From Schizochytrium sp. TIO01 (taxonomy: Eukaryota; Protista; Bigyra: Labyrinthulomycetes), in NCBI GenBank assembly GCA_004764695.1, contig SMSO01000033.1:2170001-2234000 (forward strand): a DNA stretch of 64,000 nucleotides. The letters run 5' to 3'. Positions 3,001 to 42,408 of the stretch are shown one piece after another (the stretch's first letter is position 1; every line of letters begins with the position of its first letter). A program made the translations under genes and the position numbers. The notes beneath the pieces are model-generated. The model was not told the DNA's origin. It searched no databases and saw nothing but the letters and a program-made list of their open reading frames with translations.

Positions 3001-3353
3001 TTTAAGACCAACATTTGACGTGGCGTCCTTGCTGAGACGAAGTACATCCTAACCCTACAGCAGCTCGTTGCATTCGGCGCCCAGGGAGAGAGTGAAGCGT
3101 CGGGCGGCTCTGAGTAAGGTCCCTTGGCCAAAGGTCTCTCTCTATCCACTAGACAGTGAACTCGCAGTTCGTGATCGATCGGCTGTATTACTGAGACAAT
3201 ATAGTGCTTTTCTATTCATCAAGCTCAAAATACGAGCCAAGAACTCGTGATCTGAACTACTGAATGTCAAGTTAAATTGAGGAGCGACGAGGATAGACAG
3301 CCCTCTTCACTTGGTCTATCAGAAGTAATCTTGGGCAGCAAGGGCTGCTCAAC

Positions 3354-6300
3354 ATGCCCCTCTATCTCCAAAAGCGACGAACCTCGTCACGCTCGGTAGC
3401 GCCTTCAGATTATGATAAATCGCAAACTATTAGAAGCCTGCTCGAGTCAGGTGGAGCTCCTCTCACAAGCGAGTCTCGAAGAAATCAAGTATTTGGTACT
3501 TTCGGTTTATTCGGCTATGTGCTGGCTAGTTCATTGATCCCAACCTTCATTACTTTCAGAGATTATGATACAGACACAAAACATTTAGCAGGGGCAGTGG
3601 CTACAGCTTGCATCGCCAATATCATTTTCACCATCGAAACGCTAGCAAGCGTACAATTCAGGATATTGTTTTTTCTTCAAAAGATGAAGAACCCCATCAC
3701 CCTTCTGACAACTATACCATGGTCTCTTATTTCGTTGGCAGTTTTTGGAGACTCGATTTATACCCATGTAGCACTTTCTCTTTTCATTCTACGTTTGGGA
3801 AGCGCTACGGTTACGTACTGGCCATCATTTCTTGCCATGATTAAAAGAATATTTCCGAACCCACCTTTACCGATTATTCGCTTAACATGGCTTGCTGTTG
3901 TCATTCTGTGTATACAGGCTTTAACTTCAAGCACATATTACTTCCTCGGTACACACAGTACTGTAGGCTCTTCATGGATTGACGTTGATGATCTTCGTGA
4001 TGATAACTCCACAAGACAATTGGAAGATCCTAGTTCCGCGGGTACGCTTCGGTTTGCGCGGTCTTTTTATTATGTGTGGCAAACTCTTCTTACTTTGGGT
4101 TACGGTGATGTAGCTCCTGTGGCTGCCATTGAGCGCGTCTTTGGACTTATCCTTTGTCTCGCTGGAGTCTTTTTGATGGCTTACATGATTGCAAACTTGA
4201 CATCGTTCCTTGTCAATCTCGATTCCACGCCAGCTGCTCATCGTCACACTGTAGATAGCGTCGATGCTTTTCTCTCTGCTCAAGAAATTCCCTCTGTGAC
4301 ACGAAAGATTGTTCGGCGAGCACTTGATCGGGTTTGGATACGCTCGAAAGGTCTCACACGCAAACGGGTCTTCGATGACTTGCCTCCAGCACTTACGAGA
4401 AAGATCCTGGAATTCAAAGCCCAAGCTATAATTTCCTCTCCACTGTTTTGGGAACCAGAAACTAGGGACCCATGCTTTCGAGTCATTTTGTATCTAGTAG
4501 ATAAAGTTGAGCCTTCGATTTTTGATGTTGGCCGGACCATCCGTGACCCCTGGGATATGATACCATATCGCCCTGGGCTTATGTGGTTCCTTATGAATGG
4601 TACTGCATCGAAAAGACGACCAAAGAATAACCGTGCAGCACTAAGAATGGCTCTAGGGGATCCTGCAACACCAGTGAGAAGATCCTTCCGTGCTCAAGCG
4701 CTCTCTAAATTCACTACCTCAAGTCATGCCGAAGCACCTGGGCAAGATCCGGGAGAGAAATACCAGGTCAATGATCCTCGAGTCCATCCCAACGATATGG
4801 AATATGCAGCTCTAGAGCGTAGTTTTACGAACTCATCAGCTGTATTGTGGGGAGGCACTGCCAAAGGACGCAACCTGTACGAGCCACATGAAGATCTCAT
4901 CTCCGAGATTCACGATAACTACCCTAATATTCTCCTACCTGGAAGGTCCGTTGGCGCCCTTGGCTTCTTCAATGTTTTGCATTGCCCTCCCCCAAGATAC
5001 GTGGCTCTAACACGATGTGAAATTCTGTTTCTGAATTATGTTGATTTTCGTCGCATGGCACTTCTCTTCCCAGAATGGAAAATGGAAGAGACATCCTCAC
5101 ACGTGGTTCGCGCCATGGATGATAGAAGGAGGACAGAAAGTGATGAAGAGCCACAGATCGTGTACACGCCCAAGCTACCTATTGAGCTTGACTCTAGAAT
5201 CATCAATCAACTGGATGCAGAATGTTCTTACTCGTCTCTAGCGGTAGAAAGCGACCCTGAAGACGGTAATTCTACAGATGACAGTACTGGACCGGGTGAT
5301 GAAATGAAGCTAAATCATAGTTCTGATGACACACTGAATCTCTCAAGCTCTTTAAAACGATCAGGAGGAGCGACCAAATCGAAAAGGCGAACATCCTCAA
5401 AAGGTAACCCGCGCCGAGCAAGCACAAAAATTGCTGCGCTCATGCAGCAGCAAATCAATGAGAAGGGTCAACAGAAAAAAGGTTGGGCAAAACTCCTTGC
5501 CAGATTCGAACACAAGCCAGGAAGCCTGATTGATGTGACCTGGGATTGTGTACTGGCGATTGTCTTTACCTCGTATGGAATTTTCATTCCTATTCACATT
5601 GCCATGATTGTTGCAGGCATTCCTCTGCCTGCTGCATCATTGCTCCTAGGCTTTGGGGCGTTCATTGGAGATTCAATTGCCATTGCGAGCTGGAGGCTCC
5701 GACCTATTCTCTGTCCTCGAGACGAATCCGATGCTGAAAAGAAAAAGTCGGCAAATGTAACTGACGCCTTGATCCTGCAAACATCTGGCCATCGACTAAG
5801 TGGTGCATTTATATCTGCTGAGAACCGTCGAGCATCAAGGCAAGGCTCGATGTCACGTCGGAAATCTGTATCGACCCAAGTTGCACTTTCCCAGGGTTTG
5901 TGGTCATCACACCAAGAAAAATTGGCCCGCGTGCGTGCAGAAATGGCTTCTCGCGTGTCGCGAGTGATCAATCAAGCTCTTTCTTTTGCTGAGATTCTCT
6001 TATCGTGTCTCATGTTTATAACCTTGGCCCTTTCCTTTGCAATAGCTCTAGGAAACTACTCGAATGATCGCCAGCAAGAGCTTCGACGAGTCATGCATAT
6101 AATGCGTACGCCCTTCCTTATCCGACTCTTTAGCTCAGGTCGTTTAATTGATCGATTGTGTAATCATGTCCAGATGTGGATTGCACAACGGAAGCTTGCC
6201 GAGGCTGTTCGTCTTGATGACTTAACTCCAAATAACACGCCAGGGGATGAACTCATAGCGAAAAATCGGATGGCAAATAGTGAAATCGAAGAGTTGGCGG

Positions 6301-9300
6301 GAGGGGAGAAAAATAAGGTGTTCATCTCTGCGCGACTCTGTGTGTATTTTGTCTTGTGGGCTCACTTTACCGCATGCTTCGGCCTGGTAATCGCTGAAGA
6401 AAGTAGTATCGGATCAACGCGAACATCAGTGGCTAGTAAGTACATTGTGGGCATTTATTGGTCTCTCACAACAATTACAACCACTGGGTTTGGAGACATA
6501 GTACCTGATTCAACTCGTGATTCTTTGGTTACAACCACCTTTGCGATCATTGGTATTGCAGTGTACTCCTGCTTGGTGTCATTTATCGGGACTCTATTGA
6601 AGGATACGGAATTCTCAGATCACAATATGACACATCAACGAACTTGTGTGATGGCACTTCTTTTTGATAAAGAGATCTCGATGCATATACAAACAAAGGT
6701 GTCTCAATATTTACAATACGTTGAAGCACGGGATATTCTTGCCTTTCGTAGAGTTCTTGGGATCTCAGAAGACTTGCAGGCCCAAAGGTTTCGTCACTAC
6801 TCTCGGGTAAAGCGAGATAACATCCTCTACAACGTCTCCTCAGTGCCAATTAAGGAAGAAAGTGTGTTGTCAAAAACTAGTCCGCCCTCAAGTCATGACT
6901 TCCTGAATTACTCAACCTTCCTAATAAAAAGTTGCGACCGGACAACTTGTCCCGAGTCATTTGATTCAGATTTTCTTTGTGCTCGGGAACGCGATCAACT
7001 ATTGTTTGATCTGACTAGAGACATTTTAAAGAGCTCAACACTTCTTTCAAATGTTTCTGAAATTTTTCTTCATGAGGCTTGTACCCTATTAGACTACCGA
7101 GTCGTAAGTTGTGGAGATATTGTGATTTCAGAGTCTGACCCAGAATGGAGCTTGTTTTTTCTGTTTCATGGTTCCATGGAAGTAAGGGGCGAGAACGACG
7201 TAAAAATAAGAAACATTGTAGAAGGTCAAGTTTTTGGCGAACAATCTTTTGCCCTAATGTCACATACAATCCGAGAAAACTTTGACAATGATGATCATAT
7301 CAAAACAAAAGATTTCGAAACAGACAGAGAAGAAGACTTTGAAAACCAAGCTGACGCTGCACTTGATCTCAGAACCTCTAGAGGCGGCATGAAAGGAAGA
7401 ACTACTTCAACAACTGATCATAGTCGTGTTATTGCTTTAACACCATGTGAGCTATGGGTCTTGCAGGGTCGTTCTCTCCGATATCTCGAGTCAATGTTTC
7501 CGCAAGATAAGGAAAAGATCATCGCAGCTGAAACAGCCTTGAACATTGTTGAGCATCGCGACACTGTATCAAACAACCTTCGAAGAGGTGGCAAACTTGC
7601 GAAGATGGCGGGTGCAGAAGAACTCGTTGTTGCTCAGCGTAAAGGTCATACTGTCTTTGCAATCAATTCCCGGACTCAACAATGGTGGAAACTTTTGATG
7701 TTTTTCGTGCTGATGTGGAATTTATTCATTTTTCCTTTGGACCTTGCCTTTGCCTGGAGTATGAATTCCCCTGGAAGACCACACATTCTCGAGAACATGC
7801 TTGATGTTTTGCTCATCATCGATGTATTTCTGCGATTAGAGTTCTTCGAACTTGAAATCACCGATGGTGAGCGAATTTCAGATCCCAAAGAATTTAGGCC
7901 GCTTTATCTCCGATCATTGTATGGGATCGCTGATATCATTTCCGCTGTGCCAATTGATCTTTTTGTGGTGGCAGCAGGAAAAGGACTTATTCCCGTCTCA
8001 CGCATCAATAAGCTATTTCGAGCTGTGCGTTTGTTTGACCATGTTTCGTCTCTTGGAAGCCATGTTAAGAATCAAGCACACAAAAGCATTATCACAATCT
8101 CTAAGCTGATATTTGTTTTCTTGCTAGTGGCCCATTGGGAAGGATGTCTTTTTTATTCTGTAGGCATGGCTTCAGTGATCAATGGAGAGGCATCATGGGT
8201 TGATGATAATCATACAGGTTTGTTGCAGCTTCCAGGAGATAACAGTCAACAATCGGAACAAAATAAAGGAGTGGCTTTTATTGACGATAGTAGCAAATGG
8301 TACGAACATTATATTAGTGCATTATATTTCGCAGTCGCCGCTAGCACGTCTGTAGGTTATGGCGATGTGGTACCTGTCTCGCATCTCGAAGTTCTCTATA
8401 CCATTGCTGTCTTGCTCTTTGCGGGTTTGCTGTACGCTGTGATTATTGCTTTTTTGGAAGACATTGTGGCACAATCAGACTTGACCTCTACTTTGTACCA
8501 AAAGAAGGCTGATCTTCTTGGAGCATTTACTCAAATGCATCGCTTACCAAATAAGGTAAAAGCTGGTATTCGCAGCTACCTTTTTCGCATTTGGATGCAC
8601 CAGAAAGGTGTCAAAACAGAGAAAATTCTGAACTATCTGGGCAAGTCTCTCAGAGAGCAGATCACAATTGAAATTGTTGGGGAGCAAAACCTTCGAAAAA
8701 CCCCCGTCATTGGACCATCTCGTCTGTGGCGGTTTCTTGTGCATGATTTTAAATTCGATCGCTATCGCAGAAACTCTCTATTATACTACGCTGGTCAAGA
8801 TGCGGAAAATGTTTTCTTTATTCTGAAAGGTACTGTGGAAATTGTTTCTCCTGACCTTGAAAAGGTATTCTACACAGTTGAAGCAGGAGGGATATCTGGC
8901 ATAGATAGCTTTTTCAGACCGCTTCAACCTGGATATATGGCGTCCGCGCGCTGTAAAGGTAGTTGCGAAGTTGCAATATTGAATCGAAGGGTTATAAATG
9001 AAGCTTTAGCCAACAATCCCCACCTAATGAATCTATTCAAAGAAGAACTGCGTGTATTTCTTAGCAAGCCTAGTCAATTAGAACACACAAAGAGGAACCT
9101 GGACAAGCGCAAACTAACCAAGATGTTTCAAGATGGTGAGGAGCGAGAGAACTCGGGCAAGAGAAAATTTGACCTCAACAACTACATTCTTTTACCGTCA
9201 GACCCTGGCTACACGTTGTTTTATATATTCGTGTTTGCTATCACGATTGTCAACGGAATTATTGTTCCTTTGTGGGCTACTGCCGCAGCGTCTGAGGCTT

Positions 9301-11018
9301 CAACAATTTATACTTCCTCCACGTCATTAGTTTTCGTAATTGTCAATATACTCATGGACATGGTTCTTTGGCTTTTTATTGGCTTGCAACTGACCGTTAT
9401 TGCTCAGGTTAAGAATGGCCAAGTTATGAATACAGTTTCGAGTATTCGACATGAATACATGAGATCAGGGAACTTTGCCATGGATTTAATAGCAACTTTT
9501 CCACTAGACTTCATCGCACTCGCAGCAGGGGCAAGCTTAAGAGTCGTCTTTGCTCTCCGTGTTTTGAGATTGCTCTGGCATCATCATTTACCCGTCATTG
9601 TCAATACATTTAATAATTCGATTGATGCTTCATCTAGTGTTACTATATCAAGCGGGTACAGGCATCTTCTGAAAATTGTTGCGACTGTCATCATTGCCAC
9701 ACATTGGTTAGCATGCGGATATGGACGTTTATTATTATATACACGGGAAGACTACCAGATCGTGAGTATAACAGGCTCCTACATCAATCACCTATATTAT
9801 ACGTTCTACTCCGTCACCACAATTGGATATGGTAATGTGGAAGTCATAGGTGTATCTGAGAAGATTTATGCCATCATGGTTATGGTTGTTGGCTCATTTC
9901 TCTGTAATGCTGGCATTGTCTCAACATTGGTCTCAATTGTTGAAATTGAGGATTCAACTGCTGCTGCAGGTAATCGTCGGAAGGATGCCGCATTGCAAAT
10001 GGCCAACTGCTTCCAGTATCCGGACCACATAAAGAATATCATTCGTACATATTATGATAATATCTCTGAAAAGAATGGCGTAAATGATCAAGAGTGCCTG
10101 GATAGTTTACCATTATCTCTGAAGAGCACGGTCATGGACTTCCTTGCATTTAGTGCTGTTCGAGCTAGTCCAGCGCGGTGCAAGTGTATTTGGGATTTCC
10201 GAGACGGCCTTTTAGTGACCTTAGTTCGAAAGATGCGCATTGAGACGACCATTCCAATGGAGTTGCTTTATAAAGCAAACGAGCCTATGTTCCACGTCAC
10301 AATTGTAATGCAAGGATGTGTCCTTGTCTTTGGTGCTCATGATATTCGTCCCGAAGCTTTGAATCAACTTGCATCATCACCGTCTGCTCAAGAGCGCTCA
10401 CGCAATGGCTCTGTAATTGAAGAATATCTGCCTCCAGAGCAGCGTAGCCTTGAACTATGGAACCCAGGACTCCTTCTCCCTAGTCTAGCATGGGGTGAAG
10501 CATCGCCCGTTACCTTGGTATCAGGAAACTTTTGTGAGATGCTACTATGCGACAAGGATACATATGAAGCTATCGCTGCAATGAGACCTTGCATTGGTGG
10601 TCTATATTCTTCAATTTCAGAGCTATGTGACTCAAAGGAGGACCTGAAACACCTGTGCACATTCGCGAAACGTAGAGTTATCTCTGAGAGTATTGATTTT
10701 GTTCAAGCTGTGAAAGATTACCGGAATGCTCCAAACAATACTACAATTCTGGAAAAGCGTGCACGCGTCATCGTTGATCGTTTCATCCAACCCGAGAGTG
10801 AAGAGTCGATCAATATTAATCCTGAACTTGTGAGCTCGATTGTTGATCGTGTAACAAAAGATCCGAGCCACGAAATATTTGATGAAGCTTATAAAATTGC
10901 AGTATCAAGTCTTGAAAAGGACATCCTACCTCAATTTAAGGCCTCGGAAGAATATGAAAAAATGATTGCAAACATTCATCGAAGATCAGTCTTAGATTTT
11001 TTCCCTGAATCCTTGTAA
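3354..11018 (+). CDS. Four-repeat (pseudo-tetrameric) cyclic-nucleotide-binding-domain K+ channel (CNGK/tetraKCNG-like) with C-terminal RGS domain
   Basis: 2554-aa uninterrupted ORF. Four pore signatures: TLGYGD (~4092), TTGFGD (~6480), SVGYGD (~8349), TIGYGN (~9819). Each is preceded by TM helices and followed by a C-linker/CNBD-like region (e.g. GQVFGEQSF). The C-terminal ~125 aa (LCTFAKRRVISESIDFVQAVKDYR...IVDRFIQPESEESININPEL...IFDEAYKIAVSSLEKDILPQFKASEEY) match the RGS-box pattern. Confidence 0.93.
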   Translation: MPLYLQKRRTSSRSVAPSDYDKSQTIRSLLESGGAPLTSESRRNQVFGTFGLFGYVLASSLIPTFITFRDYDTDTKHLAGAVATACIANIIFTIETLASVQFRILFFLQKMKNPITLLTTIPWSLISLAVFGDSIYTHVALSLFILRLGSATVTYWPSFLAMIKRIFPNPPLPIIRLTWLAVVILCIQALTSSTYYFLGTHSTVGSSWIDVDDLRDDNSTRQLEDPSSAGTLRFARSFYYVWQTLLTLGYGDVAPVAAIERVFGLILCLAGVFLMAYMIANLTSFLVNLDSTPAAHRHTVDSVDAFLSAQEIPSVTRKIVRRALDRVWIRSKGLTRKRVFDDLPPALTRKILEFKAQAIISSPLFWEPETRDPCFRVILYLVDKVEPSIFDVGRTIRDPWDMIPYRPGLMWFLMNGTASKRRPKNNRAALRMALGDPATPVRRSFRAQALSKFTTSSHAEAPGQDPGEKYQVNDPRVHPNDMEYAALERSFTNSSAVLWGGTAKGRNLYEPHEDLISEIHDNYPNILLPGRSVGALGFFNVLHCPPPRYVALTRCEILFLNYVDFRRMALLFPEWKMEETSSHVVRAMDDRRRTESDEEPQIVYTPKLPIELDSRIINQLDAECSYSSLAVESDPEDGNSTDDSTGPGDEMKLNHSSDDTLNLSSSLKRSGGATKSKRRTSSKGNPRRASTKIAALMQQQINEKGQQKKGWAKLLARFEHKPGSLIDVTWDCVLAIVFTSYGIFIPIHIAMIVAGIPLPAASLLLGFGAFIGDSIAIASWRLRPILCPRDESDAEKKKSANVTDALILQTSGHRLSGAFISAENRRASRQGSMSRRKSVSTQVALSQGLWSSHQEKLARVRAEMASRVSRVINQALSFAEILLSCLMFITLALSFAIALGNYSNDRQQELRRVMHIMRTPFLIRLFSSGRLIDRLCNHVQMWIAQRKLAEAVRLDDLTPNNTPGDELIAKNRMANSEIEELAGGEKNKVFISARLCVYFVLWAHFTACFGLVIAEESSIGSTRTSVASKYIVGIYWSLTTITTTGFGDIVPDSTRDSLVTTTFAIIGIAVYSCLVSFIGTLLKDTEFSDHNMTHQRTCVMALLFDKEISMHIQTKVSQYLQYVEARDILAFRRVLGISEDLQAQRFRHYSRVKRDNILYNVSSVPIKEESVLSKTSPPSSHDFLNYSTFLIKSCDRTTCPESFDSDFLCARERDQLLFDLTRDILKSSTLLSNVSEIFLHEACTLLDYRVVSCGDIVISESDPEWSLFFLFHGSMEVRGENDVKIRNIVEGQVFGEQSFALMSHTIRENFDNDDHIKTKDFETDREEDFENQADAALDLRTSRGGMKGRTTSTTDHSRVIALTPCELWVLQGRSLRYLESMFPQDKEKIIAAETALNIVEHRDTVSNNLRRGGKLAKMAGAEELVVAQRKGHTVFAINSRTQQWWKLLMFFVLMWNLFIFPLDLAFAWSMNSPGRPHILENMLDVLLIIDVFLRLEFFELEITDGERISDPKEFRPLYLRSLYGIADIISAVPIDLFVVAAGKGLIPVSRINKLFRAVRLFDHVSSLGSHVKNQAHKSIITISKLIFVFLLVAHWEGCLFYSVGMASVINGEASWVDDNHTGLLQLPGDNSQQSEQNKGVAFIDDSSKWYEHYISALYFAVAASTSVGYGDVVPVSHLEVLYTIAVLLFAGLLYAVIIAFLEDIVAQSDLTSTLYQKKADLLGAFTQMHRLPNKVKAGIRSYLFRIWMHQKGVKTEKILNYLGKSLREQITIEIVGEQNLRKTPVIGPSRLWRFLVHDFKFDRYRRNSLLYYAGQDAENVFFILKGTVEIVSPDLEKVFYTVEAGGISGIDSFFRPLQPGYMASARCKGSCEVAILNRRVINEALANNPHLMNLFKEELRVFLSKPSQLEHTKRNLDKRKLTKMFQDGEERENSGKRKFDLNNYILLPSDPGYTLFYIFVFAITIVNGIIVPLWATAAASEASTIYTSSTSLVFVIVNILMDMVLWLFIGLQLTVIAQVKNGQVMNTVSSIRHEYMRSGNFAMDLIATFPLDFIALAAGASLRVVFALRVLRLLWHHHLPVIVNTFNNSIDASSSVTISSGYRHLLKIVATVIIATHWLACGYGRLLLYTREDYQIVSITGSYINHLYYTFYSVTTIGYGNVEVIGVSEKIYAIMVMVVGSFLCNAGIVSTLVSIVEIEDSTAAAGNRRKDAALQMANCFQYPDHIKNIIRTYYDNISEKNGVNDQECLDSLPLSLKSTVMDFLAFSAVRASPARCKCIWDFRDGLLVTLVRKMRIETTIPMELLYKANEPMFHVTIVMQGCVLVFGAHDIRPEALNQLASSPSAQERSRNGSVIEEYLPPEQRSLELWNPGLLLPSLAWGEASPVTLVSGNFCEMLLCDKDTYEAIAAMRPCIGGLYSSISELCDSKEDLKHLCTFAKRRVISESIDFVQAVKDYRNAPNNTTILEKRARVIVDRFIQPESEESININPELVSSIVDRVTKDPSHEIFDEAYKIAVSSLEKDILPQFKASEEYEKMIANIHRRSVLDFFPESL

Positions 11019-25186: not shown

Positions 25187-26434
25187 TTACTTTTTGGCTT
25201 GGAAAAACTGGCTGATGCTTTTTTGAGAATGGTCTGTGACAGGAGGCTTCGGAGCTTGAACGCGATTTGAAGACGCATTATGAGCTTTTGAGGAGTTGGA
25301 TGAAGATGGCAACGTATGAACAGGTTTAGGGAAATCAGGGGCCAGAAATTCGAGGGCTTCAGGGCCTTTCACGATGGCTTTGCGGAAGTGCCGGAAAGCA
25401 ATTGTCTTACGTTTCGGCTCAACATTGCGAAACGTTTGCATGGCAGCGTACTCAAGGAATAGCTCTGTGGCCTTGGCAATTGCTGTAGCGGCATCCTTTG
25501 AGGCCCTCTTGACGTCGTTATCCCTCCTTACAATACGTGAAATGACAGACAGGGGTAGTTGCAGAGCACAGGAGTCATTTGCAGAGCCAGAGGCGCTTTT
25601 ATTTACTTCCATAGAGCCACCTGCTTCAATGTACGCCTTAAGATCATGGTCGTAGGTCTCCTTCTCCTTGGCAGCCAGGTCAACAAAGGGTTGCTTTTCC
25701 TCATCCGTCATTGCGCGCCACTGTGAGGCAAAATACTTTGTGACATCGCTGATCTTTGTGCAACCTTCTGGGAGATCATTCTCAGAAACAGATTGACGCT
25801 TGGAATCTAGAAACTGAAAGTAGCTTGACTTGGGGCGTTTAGGGCGTGGCGGCAACGCTGGGTTGTCCTCACCTTCAACGTGCTCTTGGTCACTAGTTTG
25901 CATCACTTCAGCCTCATCCACATTCCCGCCTTGATGCTCTTCTTGCCCCCCTTCTTCCATGTCTTCCTCCACGTCTCCCTCCACATCTTCTTCTTCTTCT
26001 TCTTCTTCTTGACGATCTTCATCTGCTGCCTCGCCCTCATCATCTTCATCATTATCATTTTTGGCGGTGTTATTCTCAGCAGAATCCACAGCATTATCAG
26101 AGAGTTTTAAGGAAAGGTCTTCCTCTGGCTCTTGGGCATTCTCAGGTGACATCTTGTGTTTTTTTGCTGGATTGGAGATATCTTCATCTTCGTTTACATC
26201 ATTCTTGCGGTCTGATTCTTGTACATTTTCTTCATCTTCAGAACTAGGTTGCGAGCGTTTTCTCGAGGACTTCGCTTCGCTTTCCGAGACCCTATCAGCC
26301 TGATCGCCATCAGTATCAGCGTCCTTCCCCATGTCGCACTGCTCTACTTCATTATCTTTTCCAGAAGGGCTTCTCACCTCGAGGTTTTGACCTTCTTCGT
26401 GCGGCTTGTCATTGCCAACTTCGGCTGAAGACAT
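25187..26434 (-). CDS. Acidic N-terminus + HMG box + H2A-like histone-fold (POLE4/CHRAC1/NF-YC family) protein with C-terminal PIP box
   Basis: HMG box PKRPKSSYFQF...WRAMTDEEKQPFVDLAAKEKETY; histone fold LPLSVISRIVRRDNDV...IAKATELFL...KRKTI....F..AI....LEFL; C-terminal QKSISQFF. Confidence 0.9.
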   Translation of the reverse strand: MSSAEVGNDKPHEEGQNLEVRSPSGKDNEVEQCDMGKDADTDGDQADRVSESEAKSSRKRSQPSSEDEENVQESDRKNDVNEDEDISNPAKKHKMSPENAQEPEEDLSLKLSDNAVDSAENNTAKNDNDEDDEGEAADEDRQEEEEEEEDVEGDVEEDMEEGGQEEHQGGNVDEAEVMQTSDQEHVEGEDNPALPPRPKRPKSSYFQFLDSKRQSVSENDLPEGCTKISDVTKYFASQWRAMTDEEKQPFVDLAAKEKETYDHDLKAYIEAGGSMEVNKSASGSANDSCALQLPLSVISRIVRRDNDVKRASKDAATAIAKATELFLEYAAMQTFRNVEPKRKTIAFRHFRKAIVKGPEALEFLAPDFPKPVHTLPSSSNSSKAHNASSNRVQAPKPPVTDHSQKSISQFFQAKK

Positions 26435-27907
26435 CTTACGTTATGCTGGCCACTTGCGTCGAATCAAACAATAAACACCACAGTCCAAAATTCCACTGTA
26501 GAGCTCCAATTCTATCACCTCGCTTGGAGCAAGGTTCGGCAATGAGTCTCGATCAACGTTGATTTGGCAGCCCCGTCGAGCTCTCGCTTCTTGTGCTCTC
26601 GCTTCTCTTGCTCATGCTGGGTTTCGAGCTCCGTTCTAACTACCGCATATACTCCTAATATAACCTCCAAAGAAGCATCTCAATCATGAGTTATAATCCC
26701 CGCATAGGTGTATTAAAGAACTAATTTTAAAATATAAATAGTTCTATACTATACCCAATTACCGGTTATTATACCGTATTTAATAGATCTCAAGGTGCAT
26801 TAAAGAACAAGCTACATTTACAGAGCGTATAAACTTCCGCAAAGCCCCCTTCGCCCGTGTGCACAGGCAAATGTCCCCTTAGCTCGGCTCCAGGCCTGCG
26901 CTCGGCCGCAGCAAGATTGCAGATGTAGTCATCAACTTTCAGCGCCTCCCATCAGCATCTCTCCCATTTCCCCTTCAGCTCCTCTGCTACAGCTACAGCC
27001 CGTGTCCCGTGCCCGCTTCCTGCCTCGATGCTAATCGTGCCTCGGTAGGTGTTTGGTTTGCTTTCTTACTCACTTGCTTACATGCACAAAACATGCCTGG
27101 GAACCAGAGCTTTCTATTAGATTGATTAGATGTCACAGAGGCACGCACCTCGAAGATCATGTACTACGCATTGCATCGCATTGCATTGCATTGAGTTGCG
27201 TTTCGCCTTACAGCTCCAAGGTCGCACCTCGGCCTCGACCTCCACCTCGTCGAAGCATCAGGCCTCGAGCAACGCCACGCAACGCAACGCCACGCAACGC
27301 AACGCAAGAAAGAAAGATAGATAGAAAGAAAGGCCTTTCGTTCTACTCAGACAGAACTGCGAGCGCCCCGCAGTTTGGAGACAGACAGACAAATGCCACA
27401 AACGAAACGAGACCAGAATCCATCTTTCATGGATCACGCCTTTCTGATAGCAATAGTAGGCAACATTAGCCTGCTATGATATGATATCTATCTATCCTAA
27501 CGAGGATGGTGTAATGATGTAAAACGTTATAGGCATCATTTGTGGATCTAAGGAGATCGCAGAGGTCAGTCAACTGGATGGGTCAATTCTTAGGATCGAG
27601 GAGGTGCTCAAGGAGCTCGAAAGGGGCTCAAGTTCTTGGTTTACGGAGTGACATGCATCGTGGCACCCGTTTGACCAGGACTTGGGGAGGGCCACGAGCG
27701 GTCTTCACCCACTGCGTCAACGATGGGGTATTTATTTACTCATTCATTCATTCATTCATTCATTTATTCGTTTGCATGACCTCGGGAACCAGCCCTAGAA
27801 ATTCATTGAACTGACTGAACGAGGCTCTACCTAAGCTTAACTATAGGAGTGTGCCGTCAAGGATATGCTGCTTATTACTAGGAGCCTAGGCGCGTACTAG
27901 TACTACC

Positions 27908-28975
27908 TAGGTGGGTGCGAGTTGTGGATTTTACACGTACAAAATAACCTCAAATGCGTGTAATTCATGCCGAAGGGCAGTGCTAGCGACTTACGAAAGC
28001 TCTTTACTCCGCAGCAGCGATCGGTCTGTCTGATCTCAGCCGGCGAGGCTGGCCTGGGGCAAGGCGGTGTACTGGAATTGGCGCTTTCGTAAGGCACTCT
28101 TGAAAAGAATCCGAATAAGCCGCTCGTCTTATAATCATGGGGGACATCGGTGGCAACTTATTAAGCGACTCGGGTGGCGTGCAATGAAAGACCCGCCCGG
28201 TAGTAGTAGACCATTCCCAATAAGCCTATTCCCACCTACCTAAAACAGTAGCCACCCTCCGCATCATATTGTCACCTCAACATCAACATACCAAGTTTCA
28301 AGACAAACGATTCACAAATCAGAGTCAAAGTCAGACAGAACTCCAAACAAAGCCAGGGAAAGCTGCCTCCGCCTGCAGCGTAATGGCTTCCTAGTTGCCA
28401 GGGTCTTTTCTTCCCTTCCCGCTAACACAGCGACCTATGGGGCCTGTACTTATTTATATCAGCAAATGCAATGTCTTCCCGTCGGTCGCGACTTTTTGGC
28501 CATCGCGTGGCTCGGACGCCCTTAGAGTTACCAGTAGCCGCTGCTACGCCTACGCAATGGCCAGAACCCATCCATGTAAAGCCGAACCCAGGCTCCTGCG
28601 CAGGCACGATTCCGCACACAGAATCCCAGCTCGTCAGAGGAAACCTCATGAGCAGGGAGCCCGGATCTTGAGCGGAGGGCTGTGGCTCTTCCCAGTCCCT
28701 CTCAGGCCCACGCTCACAATGGGATCGAGCGTCTCCGAAGAGAAGCTGAAGAACTCCTGCCTTGCAAGAGCTCGCGCCTGTTAACACTGTAACTAAACGA
28801 AAGCCCTTAGCACTCGTCTACACACCTGTAGCGCCCACGTCACGGTGGTCACCGTGCCGGCCGTGTCTTGTGCGGTCTGCACCACTTCCCGCGGTAATTA
28901 ACAAGTCAATCCAGGCCTATGCATTAATTAGGCTAAGCGGCGCCTATTGCCATCTAGCACCCGCATAGATGCCTC
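27908..28975 (+). ncRNA. Candidate large structured non-coding RNA, family unassigned
   Basis: Dense nested helices, e.g. perfect 11-bp CTTACGAAAGC(27990-28000)/GCTTTCGTAAG(28083-28093), plus many hairpins. Mismatches repeatedly resolve as G-U on the + strand. No credible ORF and no microsatellites. Boundaries approximate. Confidence 0.55.
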
Positions 28976-31865
28976 CTACCCACTGTCTTTTCCTCACTTT
29001 AAAAAAACTAATTGGAAAGAACACTCATTGAAAATAGATACACAAAAACCACAAAAAGCAGGTCGATAGAATTGCCATAAAATGAATGGCATGATTGATT
29101 GAAAATCAATCATAAAATAGATGAACTCCAGTCGAAACAAGAGAAGAGCGAGAAGAGTTTAGAATGATTGTTCTCGACCTTCCTTCCCGTCGGCGTCCAC
29201 AATTGCGGTTCGCGAAAAAGCAGGGCGCAGCCTCTGGTTCTAAGGCGGACTGCGTTTTAAGCCGGCGGAGGCAGAGAAAGAGAAAGAGAGAAAGAGAGAA
29301 AAAAAAAAACAAAGAAAGAAAGAAAGAAACAAAACAGTTCTTAGGAGCAAAGAAGCGAAACCAGGGTGTCCAGGCACCGCCGCCAGGGCCCAGACCGTCT
29401 GAGGTCGCAGCTTCTGCTGTCTCTCTCCATCTGTTTCCTGACTGTCTACAGTTTGTCCAGGTTTCTCGAGGGCCTTCGCCTCTGCTCAGAAAGGCCTCGA
29501 AGCCTCGAGGAGTGCTCCGTCGCATCCGTCTCCTCCTGAGCAAGCGGGTCAGTTGCAGAATCGAGGGAGGCGGCTGGCCGGCTATAGCCCACTTGCACAT
29601 GGCCCATACAGTAGGGTATAGCGCCCAAAGTGCGTTATACGGGGGATTCTCTACATTAGGGAGCGCGGGGAAAGCGGAGCGTTGGTGCCCACAATAGGCT
29701 ATAGCTGTAGTAGGATTTTCTGCATGATAGATACTAGTTTTCCTTTTCTTCTGTTTCTTTTATTCATTTTGTTTTCAAATTAATGAAAAGAAAAAACAAG
29801 GACCCACCTACTACTAATACTAATAATAATCCTAACAATAAACTACTAGAATGGTGATTTCTTCAGATGGCAAATGATTTTTATTTAAATATATTTCATA
29901 TTGTTAGATGTCATCATGATATCAACAAAAAAAAAAGAAACAAAAGTTGTCCAAAAAAACAAGAATATGCCAGAAGCTCTTGATGAAAGTTCTAGTGTTA
30001 AGGTTATAAGGTATTGTTCACAGATCCTTCGAAAGACAGTTTTTAAAACTAAGCCAGGGGTACTAAAACCAAAGCTGGTTAGCTAACCCATAGGCAGTAA
30101 GTACTACATAGCATGATGGCAAAGTACGATAAAATAAAGTACGCCGCGTATTTAATTTAGCACAAAGCTTTTCTGCTGTTGTAGTACCTTTATAACTTAA
30201 TCCCTACGATTTACTTTTAAAACTAAAATTTATAAAACTAAATAAACATAAATCATGAACATGTACGTATATAATCGATAGCGAGAGAAAGGGAAGAACG
30301 TCCGCGAGACCTCCGCGCGCCCGCTCAGCCCCGTGGCTGGCCCAGAGCCGGGCGGCTCTCGATCCCAGGCTCCCTTGGGGCCTCCTGGAGGCCTCCGCTT
30401 GGGCCTCTGCAGAGCTGGCAGACCAGCTAGCTGGCCCGGCAGCCTGAGAGAGCAGAAGCCACGGAAGAAGGCAGAGCGCAGAGGAAAAACCTCCTCGTGG
30501 CACTTGGTCTGAAAAAAATAAACTACAGGAGCTCACTTCTAGAGTATTAGGTAGGTGCGGTGCATAGCGTGTGTAAGTGTTAAAGAATACTTGAGCAGGG
30601 TGTACTAAAATAGGATCTTTAGTGGGTATTATGGTATTGAGTAGGAGGGCGAGGCGTCTTAAAAGGGGTATCTGTCTTAAAATATTGCGAAGAAGGGGCA
30701 AAGAAAGAGAGAAGAGAGAGAGAAGAAGAGCAAAGCAATAACTAACGCGGATTGATTGATTGATTCATTCATTCGCTCATCCGTTCCCGCAGACCTTCGT
30801 AGCGAACGAGTCCGGTCCGGCTGGCAGGGCCCGGAGGAAGCGGCGTTGCGCAGGAGGGCACACATCTGGCAAGGGGCGAGCCATCGAGTGGTCGCTGCGT
30901 TGAATCGCGGAGCGGAGGCGGCAGGTTGACCTCGAGGCGGTGGCCATCGGCGATCCATTCCATTCCATTCCAATTCACTTGTCTTCTTACTTTCTCTTTC
31001 TTTCTTTCTTTCTCTCTGTTTTCTACCCTTTTCTTTTATCTTCCTTGACGATTCTTAGATTGATTCTCTGTTGTTTCTTCTTTGCGATTGAGGGAAACTC
31101 GCTCGGCCATTCCCGCAACGCCTTAGCTTCGAAGAGGTGCATCGAGGCGCGGCAGTTCTCTGGGGAACGCAAGTGGCTCGCGGAAGCAGCCGAAACCTCG
31201 AACGGACTCTGACGGGACACAACATCTAACTTTGGTGTTGTTGTTGTTGTTGTTGCCAGTAGCTTTGCTCATACTAGACGTTTGGCCGACCTTGCAGTAG
31301 TGCTGCTCGTGTAGTGTAGCAAAGGACTGATAACGTGAACCTTTGTCCGGCTTGCACGTGGTGGTGTATTGGTAATTTGTGAAAAAAAAAAACTCTGCGC
31401 TGGTGCAACACACTTGTTGGAGAACTTCGTTTTCCTATTCTATATCCATTCTACTCGCAAGGCAGGCGCAACAGTGAGCGATTGCCCTTCCTGCTACTAC
31501 TGACGTTGGACGCAACATCTGATTTTTTCGGTGCCTCACTGAAAACAAAGAAAAGAAAAAAAAGTTCAAGCCAGAGGAATCAATCTTCCTTGTTTCACTA
31601 CTGCACGTGCACTGTGGACAAGTTTTGTTTGTGAAACGCATTGGCGGTTTTCATTTTCCCTATTGGTCTGCGCAGGTATTGCGCGTAAGCCCCAGCGAAA
31701 TCTTGCCCGAGGGTTTTCGAGCGAGACAGCAACTGTAACACACGACTTTCAAATAGTATAACTCTTGTGGCTTGCGGTGACCTGTGACCTGCTGGTTCAA
31801 ATCATCATTATCAGACACTGGAGAAACCCTTGGGCATCAGTTGAAACAGATACTAGCACGCAACA

Positions 31866-42385: not shown

Positions 42386-42408
42386 CTAACCTAACCTAAC
42401 CTAACCTA
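42386..42408 (-). repeat. (TTAGG)n-type tract, about 4.5 copies (CTAAC on + strand)
   Basis: ctaacctaacctaacctaaccta read directly. Confidence 0.8.

What the first reader, a model, noticed from the sequence alone, without database searches (positions are those of the whole stretch)
27908..28238. Compact multibranch RNA fold (~330 nt) in non-coding DNA, with strand-specific G-U pairs
Seen, all mutually nested: TAGGTGGG 27908-15/CCCACCTA 28231-38; GAGTTG 27919-24/CGACTC 28166-71; GGATT 27926-30/AATCC 28108-12; TTACACGTA 27931-39/TGCGTGTAA 27955-63; TGCC-gaag-GGCA 27968-79; GTGC 27980-83/GCAC 28094-97 then a TAGCGA bulge and an 11-bp stem 27990-28000/28083-93, enclosing GATCGG/CTGATC and CAGCC/GGCTG hairpins; AATAAG 28114-19/CTTATT 28157-62 with inner GCCGC/GTGGC; and a GGGTGG/CCGCCC hairpin at 28172-98. 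At least five non-Watson-Crick positions are G-U on the + strand and would be A-C on the - strand, which suggests selection on RNA rather than a DNA palindrome. I could not find the hallmark motifs of U1-U6, U3, SRP, RNase P/MRP or tRNA. Inference: an undescribed or highly divergent functional ncRNA. A TAACCT in one hairpin loop is complementary to TTAGG repeats but is short for a telomerase template.
Basis: partly seen in the sequence, partly recalled or inferred. Interest (0 to 1): 0.78.

Follow-up and report, generated by a model that had tools for sequence, protein, structure and literature searches.

The report
Single-copy foldable insertion in a thraustochytrid
The predicted RNA stems are really in this marine protist's DNA, but their folding is only slightly better than chance, and a matching 6-base repeat on both sides suggests the 327-base stretch is likely an old inserted element rather than a proven new RNA gene.

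Summary
An unbiased count shows little G-U excess (23 G-U vs 18 A-C). Rfam has no match; the RNase P/MRP and telomerase tests are not met.

The strongest non-random feature was missed: GGTGGG...CCCACC (27910-28236) is flanked by a 6-7-nt direct repeat, TACCTA, the only such case among 263 comparable inverted repeats in the window.

Related strains carry the element as one fixed copy with no empty site. It holds 14 variable sites, about three times the density of its flanks. Four of these swap G-U and Watson-Crick pairs on + (p about 0.01-0.04), while five break predicted pairs.

Best reading (0.42): an old, single-copy insertion relic. An unknown functional + strand RNA (0.25) and chance folding (0.22) remain open. 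Transcription and covariation could not be tested. The scan's index held no look-alike.

The parts
27904..27909 (.). Left copy of direct repeat TACCTA (CTACCTA from 27903); candidate target-site duplication
   Evidence: sequence; only 1 of 263 comparable inverted repeats has such a flank
28237..28242 (.). Right copy of direct repeat TACCTA (CTACCTA from 28236)
27910..28236 (+). 327-bp element body, GGTGGG...CCCACC; one copy and present in all strains covering it; 14 variable sites, no indel listed
27908..27928 (+). 5' arm of the closing stem: 8 perfect bp with 28231-28238, imperfect extension with 28215-28225 (degenerate terminal inverted repeat or RNA P1-like stem)
   Evidence: pair probability 0.67-1.0; MFE; variants 28221 T>C and 28234 A>G keep pairing
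28215..28238 (+). 3' arm of the closing stem
27931..27963 (+). 9-bp hairpin, 15-nt A-rich loop containing TAACCT (27945-27950)
   Evidence: local z -3.6 on +, -1.2 on - (boundaries chosen on the stem); 27938 T>A opens the G-U near the loop
27968..27979 (+). TGCC-GAAG-GGCA hairpin; overlaps a P4-like strand GGG[C]AGTG 27975-27982
27980..28097 (+). Long arm: 4 bp, 6-nt bulge, perfect 11-bp stem 27990-28000/28083-28093, three inner hairpins
   Evidence: z -2.0 on +, -2.9 on -; no variant in the 11-bp stem
28119..28154 (+). Hairpin GCCGCT.../...GGTGGC
   Evidence: 28149 G>A turns U-G into U-A
28171..28199 (+). Hairpin CGGGTGG/CCGCCCG; variants 28182 and 28183 fall in its loop
28212..28218 (+). CATTCCC, possible partner of 27975-27982 (7-bp helix with one bulged C)
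   Evidence: chance 0.52 unconstrained, 0.036 with post hoc constraints
25187..26434 (-). Neighbour: HMG-box/histone-fold gene transcribed away from the element; RNA-type contigs carrying it end at about 27620-27770

Best explanation
The 327-bp stretch GGTGGG...CCCACC lies between two copies of TACCTA and is likely the relic of a small non-coding element that would have inserted here once, duplicating 6-7 bp of target. Shown: the direct repeat, the short terminal inverted repeat with an imperfect extension to about 20 bp, one fixed copy in the strains laid, and variation concentrated inside the boundaries. Inferred: a staggered-cut insertion made the duplication (DDE-transposase or retro-type; the enzyme is not identified). 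The element became fixed upstream of the HMG gene, and its nested inverted repeats, which give the fold, are a legacy of the element now drifting. The mild + strand bias in pair-keeping variants would be residual or chance.
For: (1) Of 263 perfect inverted repeats of 8 bp or more spanning 200-500 nt in the window, only this one has a flanking direct repeat of 6 nt or more (nominal chance about 0.001 per repeat, noticed post hoc). (2) The 14 variable sites fall between 27938 and 28234. None is listed in 27779-27937 or 28235-28459. Density is 14/331 vs 12/1021 in the right flank (Fisher p=0.002; 0.008 if four unlisted sites are added to the flank) and 9/1219 on the left, so the stretch behaves as a discrete unit and not as a sequence-conserved gene. 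(3) Folding is near chance and 5 of 9 variants at paired positions break the pair. (4) No RNA family, tRNA or hallmark motif. (5) TSD size and sequence are diagnostic of DNA transposon superfamilies, 4-10 bp in several (PMC3706591, passages).
Against: No second copy at 80% identity or more, no loose end at either boundary and no empty site in DNA runs X2, X4, X8. The tool drops some contigs (X1 shows none over the element) and 45 pieces were not shown. The perfect terminal repeat is only 6 bp. The neighbourhood is rich in CTA/TAG words, which makes the direct repeat less surprising. Variants keep + strand pairs more often than expected (p 0.01-0.04), none breaks the 72 core Watson-Crick positions (expected 2.3, p=0.07), and no indel is listed inside the element. 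The excess variation comes mostly from one divergent haplotype: X8 differs at only 4 sites.
Confidence: 0.42

Rival explanations
1. A functional, fast-evolving + strand non-coding RNA of an undescribed family, likely transcribed divergently from the HMG gene's upstream region and kept by structure rather than sequence. It may itself have arrived by insertion.
For: Single copy and present in the 5 laid runs that cover it. Four G-U/Watson-Crick swaps on + (28073, 28149, 28221, 28234); ensemble-weighted keeps 3.8 vs 1.7, p=0.01, and 2.2 vs 2.1 on -. Watson-Crick breaks 2 vs 6.0 expected, p=0.017. All five haplotypes fold at -114.6 to -116.9 kcal/mol. No indels listed inside.
Against: z only -1.3 to -2.0. 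Retention of the X2 haplotype's energy is not significant (p=0.13). No two-sided compensatory change among 14 sites. Five breaks. More variable than the flanks; transcription-associated mutagenesis as described for tRNA genes raises flank variation (PMC6130373, abstract), which is not seen here. No T5 terminator, A/B box, Sm site or C box. The four SNP tests are not independent or corrected.
Confidence: 0.25
2. Ordinary intergenic DNA whose stems, direct repeat and variant pattern are chance.
For: A comparable stem set occurs in 28% of shuffled windows, and 3.3 perfect 11-bp stems are expected per window vs 2 seen outside low-complexity sequence. The adjoining 27420-27735 folds better (z -3.1). 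G-U vs A-C is 23 vs 18.
Against: It needs three separate coincidences: the flanking direct repeat (1 of 263), the bounded excess of variation and the + strand pair-keeping variants.
Confidence: 0.22
3. A highly divergent RNase MRP or RNase P RNA, or a derivative, that would fold as P1-P2-P3-P4-...-P2'-P19-P4'-P1'.
For: The size (331 nt) is within the 250-550 nt of RNase P RNAs (PMC2996960, passages). A 7-bp helix with one bulged pyrimidine joins GAA-GGG[C]AGTG (27972-27982) to CATTCCC (28212-28218) (constrained chance 0.036).
Against: The bulge is C, not the universally conserved U of P4 (PMC10966300, passages). No AG-starting CR-IV precedes the P2 3' strand and no GARAR pentaloop sits on a stem (features from PMC13184271, passages; sequence). 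The scaffold costs 15 kcal/mol against the MFE. Any such helix arises in 52% of shuffles. Rfam gave no P or MRP hit at E of 10 or less. Stramenopiles are reported to have replaced RNP RNase P by PRORP (PMC10941002, passages).
Confidence: 0.07
4. Telomerase RNA with template UAACCU for TTAGG repeats.
For: A. limacinum telomeres are TTAGG (bioRxiv 10.1101/2023.06.15.545109, passages). TAACCT meets the 'repeat + 1 nt' minimum of PMC8287931 (passages). Single copy, suitable size.
Against: The expected number of such 6-mers is 0.28 per 331 nt, with four more on + within 26450-29300 and no 7-mer. No H-type pseudoknot (0, vs 1.55 in shuffles). The template would sit in a 15-nt loop closed by 9 bp. 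The telomere repeat of this strain was not observed directly.
Confidence: 0.04

Closest known systems
Non-autonomous DNA transposons / MITEs (general features recalled; TSD as superfamily marker from PMC3706591, passages)
   Same: Short, non-coding, terminal inverted repeat, flanking direct repeat, internal foldback
   Different: One copy, no empty site seen, perfect terminal repeat only 6 bp, no autonomous partner found
Dada transposons (PMC3706591, passages)
   Same: 6-7-bp target-site duplication
   Different: Dada lack terminal inverted repeats and insert in U6, U1 or tRNA genes; the flanks here match no RNA gene
IS607/Fanzor2 elements (PMC3627910, passages; noted in this genome by e1-10595914)
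   Same: Same host genome; non-coding structured ends are expected for such elements (recalled)
   Different: [quoted passage not shown]
Eukaryotic RNase MRP / RNase P RNA (PMC13184271, PMC10966300, PMC2996960; passages)
   Same: Length, closing stem, a possible P2-P3-P19 order and a P4-like bulged helix after GAA
   Different: No bulged U, no CR-IV, no GARAR P8, no Rfam score; the P4 5' strand is locked in a stable hairpin
Diaphoretickes telomerase RNAs (PMC8287931, passages)
   Same: Minimal 6-nt template-like word, single copy
   Different: No pseudoknot 3' of the template, template in a small hairpin loop, no T5 terminator

Membership tests
MITE / non-autonomous DNA transposon | Target-site duplication | tested here: met
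   TACCTA at 27904-09 and 28237-42; 1 of 263
MITE / non-autonomous DNA transposon | Terminal inverted repeats | tested here: inconclusive
   6 perfect bp inside the duplication, imperfect to about 20
MITE / non-autonomous DNA transposon | Many dispersed copies | tested here: not met
   One locus in X2, X4, X8 at 80% identity or more (tables cut); none in window
MITE / non-autonomous DNA transposon | Empty site or autonomous partner | tested here: inconclusive
   No joint in 8 runs laid, 5 of which cover the element; no genome held
RNase P / MRP RNA | P4 pseudoknot from CR-I and CR-V with conserved bulged U | tested here: not met
   Best helix has bulged C; definition
RNase P / MRP RNA | CR-IV (A1, G2, A7) before the P2 3' strand | tested here: not met
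   28155-28164 reads AACTTATTAA; definition
RNase MRP RNA | P8 with GARAR pentaloop | tested here: not met
   GARAR at 27995, 28102, 28186, none as a stem-closed pentaloop in the folds
RNase P / MRP RNA | Covariance-model score | tested here: not met
   No hit at E of 10 or less
Telomerase RNA | Template of one repeat plus at least 1 nt | tested here: met
   TAACCT at 27945; chance 0.28 per 331 nt
Telomerase RNA | Pseudoknot 3' of the template | tested here: not met
   0 H-type pseudoknots under simple criteria
Telomerase RNA | Shared type-3 promoter (USE) with snRNA genes | not testable with these tools
   No genome held
snRNA / snoRNA / SRP / tRNA / hammerhead / group I | Family hallmark motifs or model score | tested here: not met
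   Rfam; ARAGORN; recalled consensus motifs
Functional structured RNA (any) | Covariation across homologs | tested here: inconclusive
   Only near-identical strains; 4 one-sided keeps, 0 two-sided, 5 breaks
Functional structured RNA (any) | Discrete stranded transcript | not testable with these tools
   All runs are unstranded contigs

The most novel reading that the evidence does not exclude
A real + strand RNA built on an RNase P/MRP-type scaffold (P1-P2-P3, bulged P4, P19) that has shed the catalytic consensus (C for the bulged U, no CR-IV) and evolves fast under structural selection alone. It would be a third, non-canonical P/MRP-like RNA in a lineage reported to have replaced RNP RNase P by PRORP. 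The wider claim of some undescribed functional RNA here has about 0.3.
Probability: 0.07. Interest if true: 0.8.

Novelty: new member of a known kind. Interest (0 to 1): 0.3.

Why it matters
On the best reading it is a minor, unclassified insertion relic ('known kind' means transposon-type insertion in the broad sense, not a named family). If it is transcribed and covaries, it would be an RNA family unknown to Rfam in a group whose non-coding RNAs are little described in the papers searched. A P/MRP-like or telomerase identity would fill a gap for Labyrinthulomycetes. One alignment to the syntenic Hondaea locus and one stranded RNA library would settle it.

Tried and rejected
No whole genome is held, so copy number, promoter comparison and canonical MRP/TR searches were not possible.

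Homolog searches:
- Metagenome scan with the 11-bp stem pattern: 2 hits, a fold-back contig (L001) and an unrelated stretch (L002).
- Viral scans with five patterns gave 21, 0, 1, 1 and 0 loci. BLAST of the fetched loci showed nothing beyond the seed, longest 22 nt (all rows, top 8 rows of 30 loci).
- Phages: no match; plasmids: two 23-nt chance matches.
- Syntenic loci through the HMG protein: only distant HMG/histone-fold hits.
- The scan's index: no look-alike (word searches gave nothing relevant).

Expression: no RNA holder listed. In three runs guessed to be RNA the element is covered by separate low-depth contigs (X16, X17) or not covered (X9); contigs give no strand or level, so this is not used as evidence.

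Considered and dropped from recalled motifs: group I intron, hammerhead, SRP, 7SK, U1/U2/U3/U5/U6, snR30, SINE (and inspection). Quasi-palindrome correction as a cause of the variants: p=0.07, not significant.

Literature: 'telomerase RNA' + 'Aurantiochytrium' gave 0 papers; searches listed none on this locus (listings only, plus passages of PMC7073664). Supplements of PMC13184271 held as text name no thraustochytrid (its alignment figures may be pictures). The supplement of PMC8287931 could not be read and may bear on the telomerase and USE question. PMC1183490 is not held.

Full report
Context. The window is eukaryotic, with long intron-poor ORFs. The element lies 1.5 kb upstream of that gene (25187-26434, minus strand). 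Contigs from runs guessed to be RNA carry the gene up to about 27620-27770, so the element starts some 140-290 nt beyond, pointing away if it is read on +. No genome is held.

Observation. All nine listed helices are present. Six have pair probabilities of 0.58-1.0; GAGTTG/CGACTC, GGATT/AATCC and AATAAG/CTTATT have 0.15 or less. Significance is weak. z is -1.65 on + and -0.54 on -, and -1.11 with flanks. Three of 57 GC-matched tiles fold lower. A strand-neutral mismatch count gives 23 G-U to 18 A-C, so the G-U argument as written is largely a selection effect.

Known families. Rfam gives nothing at gathering score in the window and only weak scores of 9-16 bits at E of 10 or less around the element. 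ARAGORN finds nothing. Recalled hallmark motifs are absent apart from short words expected by chance. A P4-like helix exists, GGG[C]AGTG 27975-82 with CATTCCC 28212-18, after GAA. Such a helix arises in 52% of shuffles, 3.6% with post hoc constraints, and the scaffold costs 15 kcal/mol. The bulge is C where P4 has a universally conserved U (PMC10966300). CR-IV and the GARAR P8 loop (PMC13184271) are missing, and stramenopiles are reported to use PRORP (PMC10941002; no heterokont hit in 6 genomes in PMC2996960). For telomerase, TAACCT meets the 'repeat + 1' rule (PMC8287931; TTAGG telomeres), but it is expected by chance, there is no 7-mer and no pseudoknot.

Strains. Twenty of 24 listed runs hold the region; I laid 8. 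Five cover the element (X2, X4, X8, X16, X17), each as one locus (X4 with an allelic bubble), with no loose end at its borders and no joint across it. X1, X9 and X24 show no contig there; the tool drops records, and 9 difference rows and 45 pieces were not shown. Fourteen sites vary inside 27908-28238, none is listed in 27779-27937 or 28235-28459, and 12 in 28239-29259 (p=0.002). In X2, 11 of 19 differences over 1481 nt lie in the element (p=0.0009). X8 differs at only 4 sites, so one divergent haplotype and its recombinants drive much of the excess. No indel is listed inside, against 3 to the left and 6 in 28450-29044.

Variants against the window-only fold: 4 keep a pair (all G-U/Watson-Crick swaps; expected 1.7, p=0.04), 5 break one (3 G-U, 2 Watson-Crick; expected 6.0 Watson-Crick breaks, p=0.017), 5 are unpaired, none breaks the 72 core positions (p=0.07), and energy retention is not significant (p=0.13). 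Ensemble-weighted, keeps are in excess on + (p=0.01; net p=0.03) and not on - (p=0.47; net 0.11). There is no two-sided compensatory change. These tests overlap and are uncorrected: a real but modest hint of + strand structure.

The missed feature. The closing stem is flanked by a direct repeat: TACCTA|GGTGGG...CCCACC|TACCTA, 7 nt if the shared C is counted. It is the only one of 263 perfect inverted repeats of 8 bp or more and 200-500 nt span in the window with a direct repeat of 6 nt or more at its edges. I noticed it post hoc and the area is rich in CTA words, so the nominal 0.001 overstates it. Two of the eight closing base pairs would come from the duplication itself, leaving a 6-bp terminal repeat with an imperfect extension, which 28221 T>C improves. 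Boundaries of the fold, the duplication and the variation block coincide, which suits an inserted unit. TSDs of 6-7 bp are known from Dada, which lacks terminal repeats and targets small RNA genes (PMC3706591). IS607/Fanzor2 elements have neither TIR nor TSD (PMC3627910). The defining multicopy feature of a MITE was tested and not met, so I do not file it in a family.

Mechanism and odds. Most likely (0.42) a small non-autonomous element inserted by a staggered cut, became fixed, lost detectable relatives, and its inverted repeats now read as an RNA fold; every step after the sequence anatomy is inferred. A functional + strand RNA of unknown family has 0.25, chance 0.22, a P/MRP derivative 0.07 and telomerase RNA 0.04. 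These odds are my judgement from the tests above. All searches for distant homologs were negative or chance, but none of those collections is rich in thraustochytrid genomes, so absence means little.

Papers. I saw keyword passages of 10.1101/2023.06.15.545109, PMC8287931, PMC13184271, PMC10941002, PMC7073664, PMC2996960, PMC10966300, PMC3627910 and PMC3706591; abstract and opening of PMC6130373; a text search of the PMC13184271 supplements. Others were search listings only. Consensus motifs and general MITE features are recalled.

Verdict. The stems are real, the case for an RNA gene is unproven, and an insertion signature is the clearest non-random feature. Interest 0.3; cheap decisive tests exist.

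Noticed in passing
window 27420-27735 (+): A string of six to seven hairpins, including GAGCTC-GAAAG-GGGCTC (a GARAR pentaloop), folds better than the reported element and on + only (z -3.1 vs -0.9; -2.4 for 27540-27740). It lies under the contigs that carry the HMG transcript. No Rfam match, no look-alike in the scan. Variant 27614 A>C breaks one pair of that hairpin.
   Followed up: partly
window 27897-27907 and 28199-28209: These stretches are complementary with one mismatch; the X4 variant 28206 G>C makes 11 of 11 (p about 0.06). The helix would cross the closing stem as a pseudoknot or alternative fold.
   Followed up: partly
window 28114-28121 and 28219-28226: AATAAGCC occurs twice inside the element, giving CTTATT (28157-62) two possible partners.
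   Followed up: partly
window 26435-27770: The HMG/histone-fold gene appears to have an unspliced leader of about 1.3 kb in unstranded contigs of three runs, or a second transcript overlaps it.
   Followed up: no
window 3297-11018 (+): A 2573-codon open frame combines four ion-transport stretches, a cyclic-nucleotide-binding domain and a C-terminal RGS domain.
   Followed up: no
window 42386-42408: Interstitial (CTAAC)4.6 repeat, a 5-mer like but not identical to the TTAGG telomere unit.
   Followed up: no
L001:1-2444: The contig is one long inverted duplication around 1174-1289, probably a fold-back assembly artefact.
   Followed up: no
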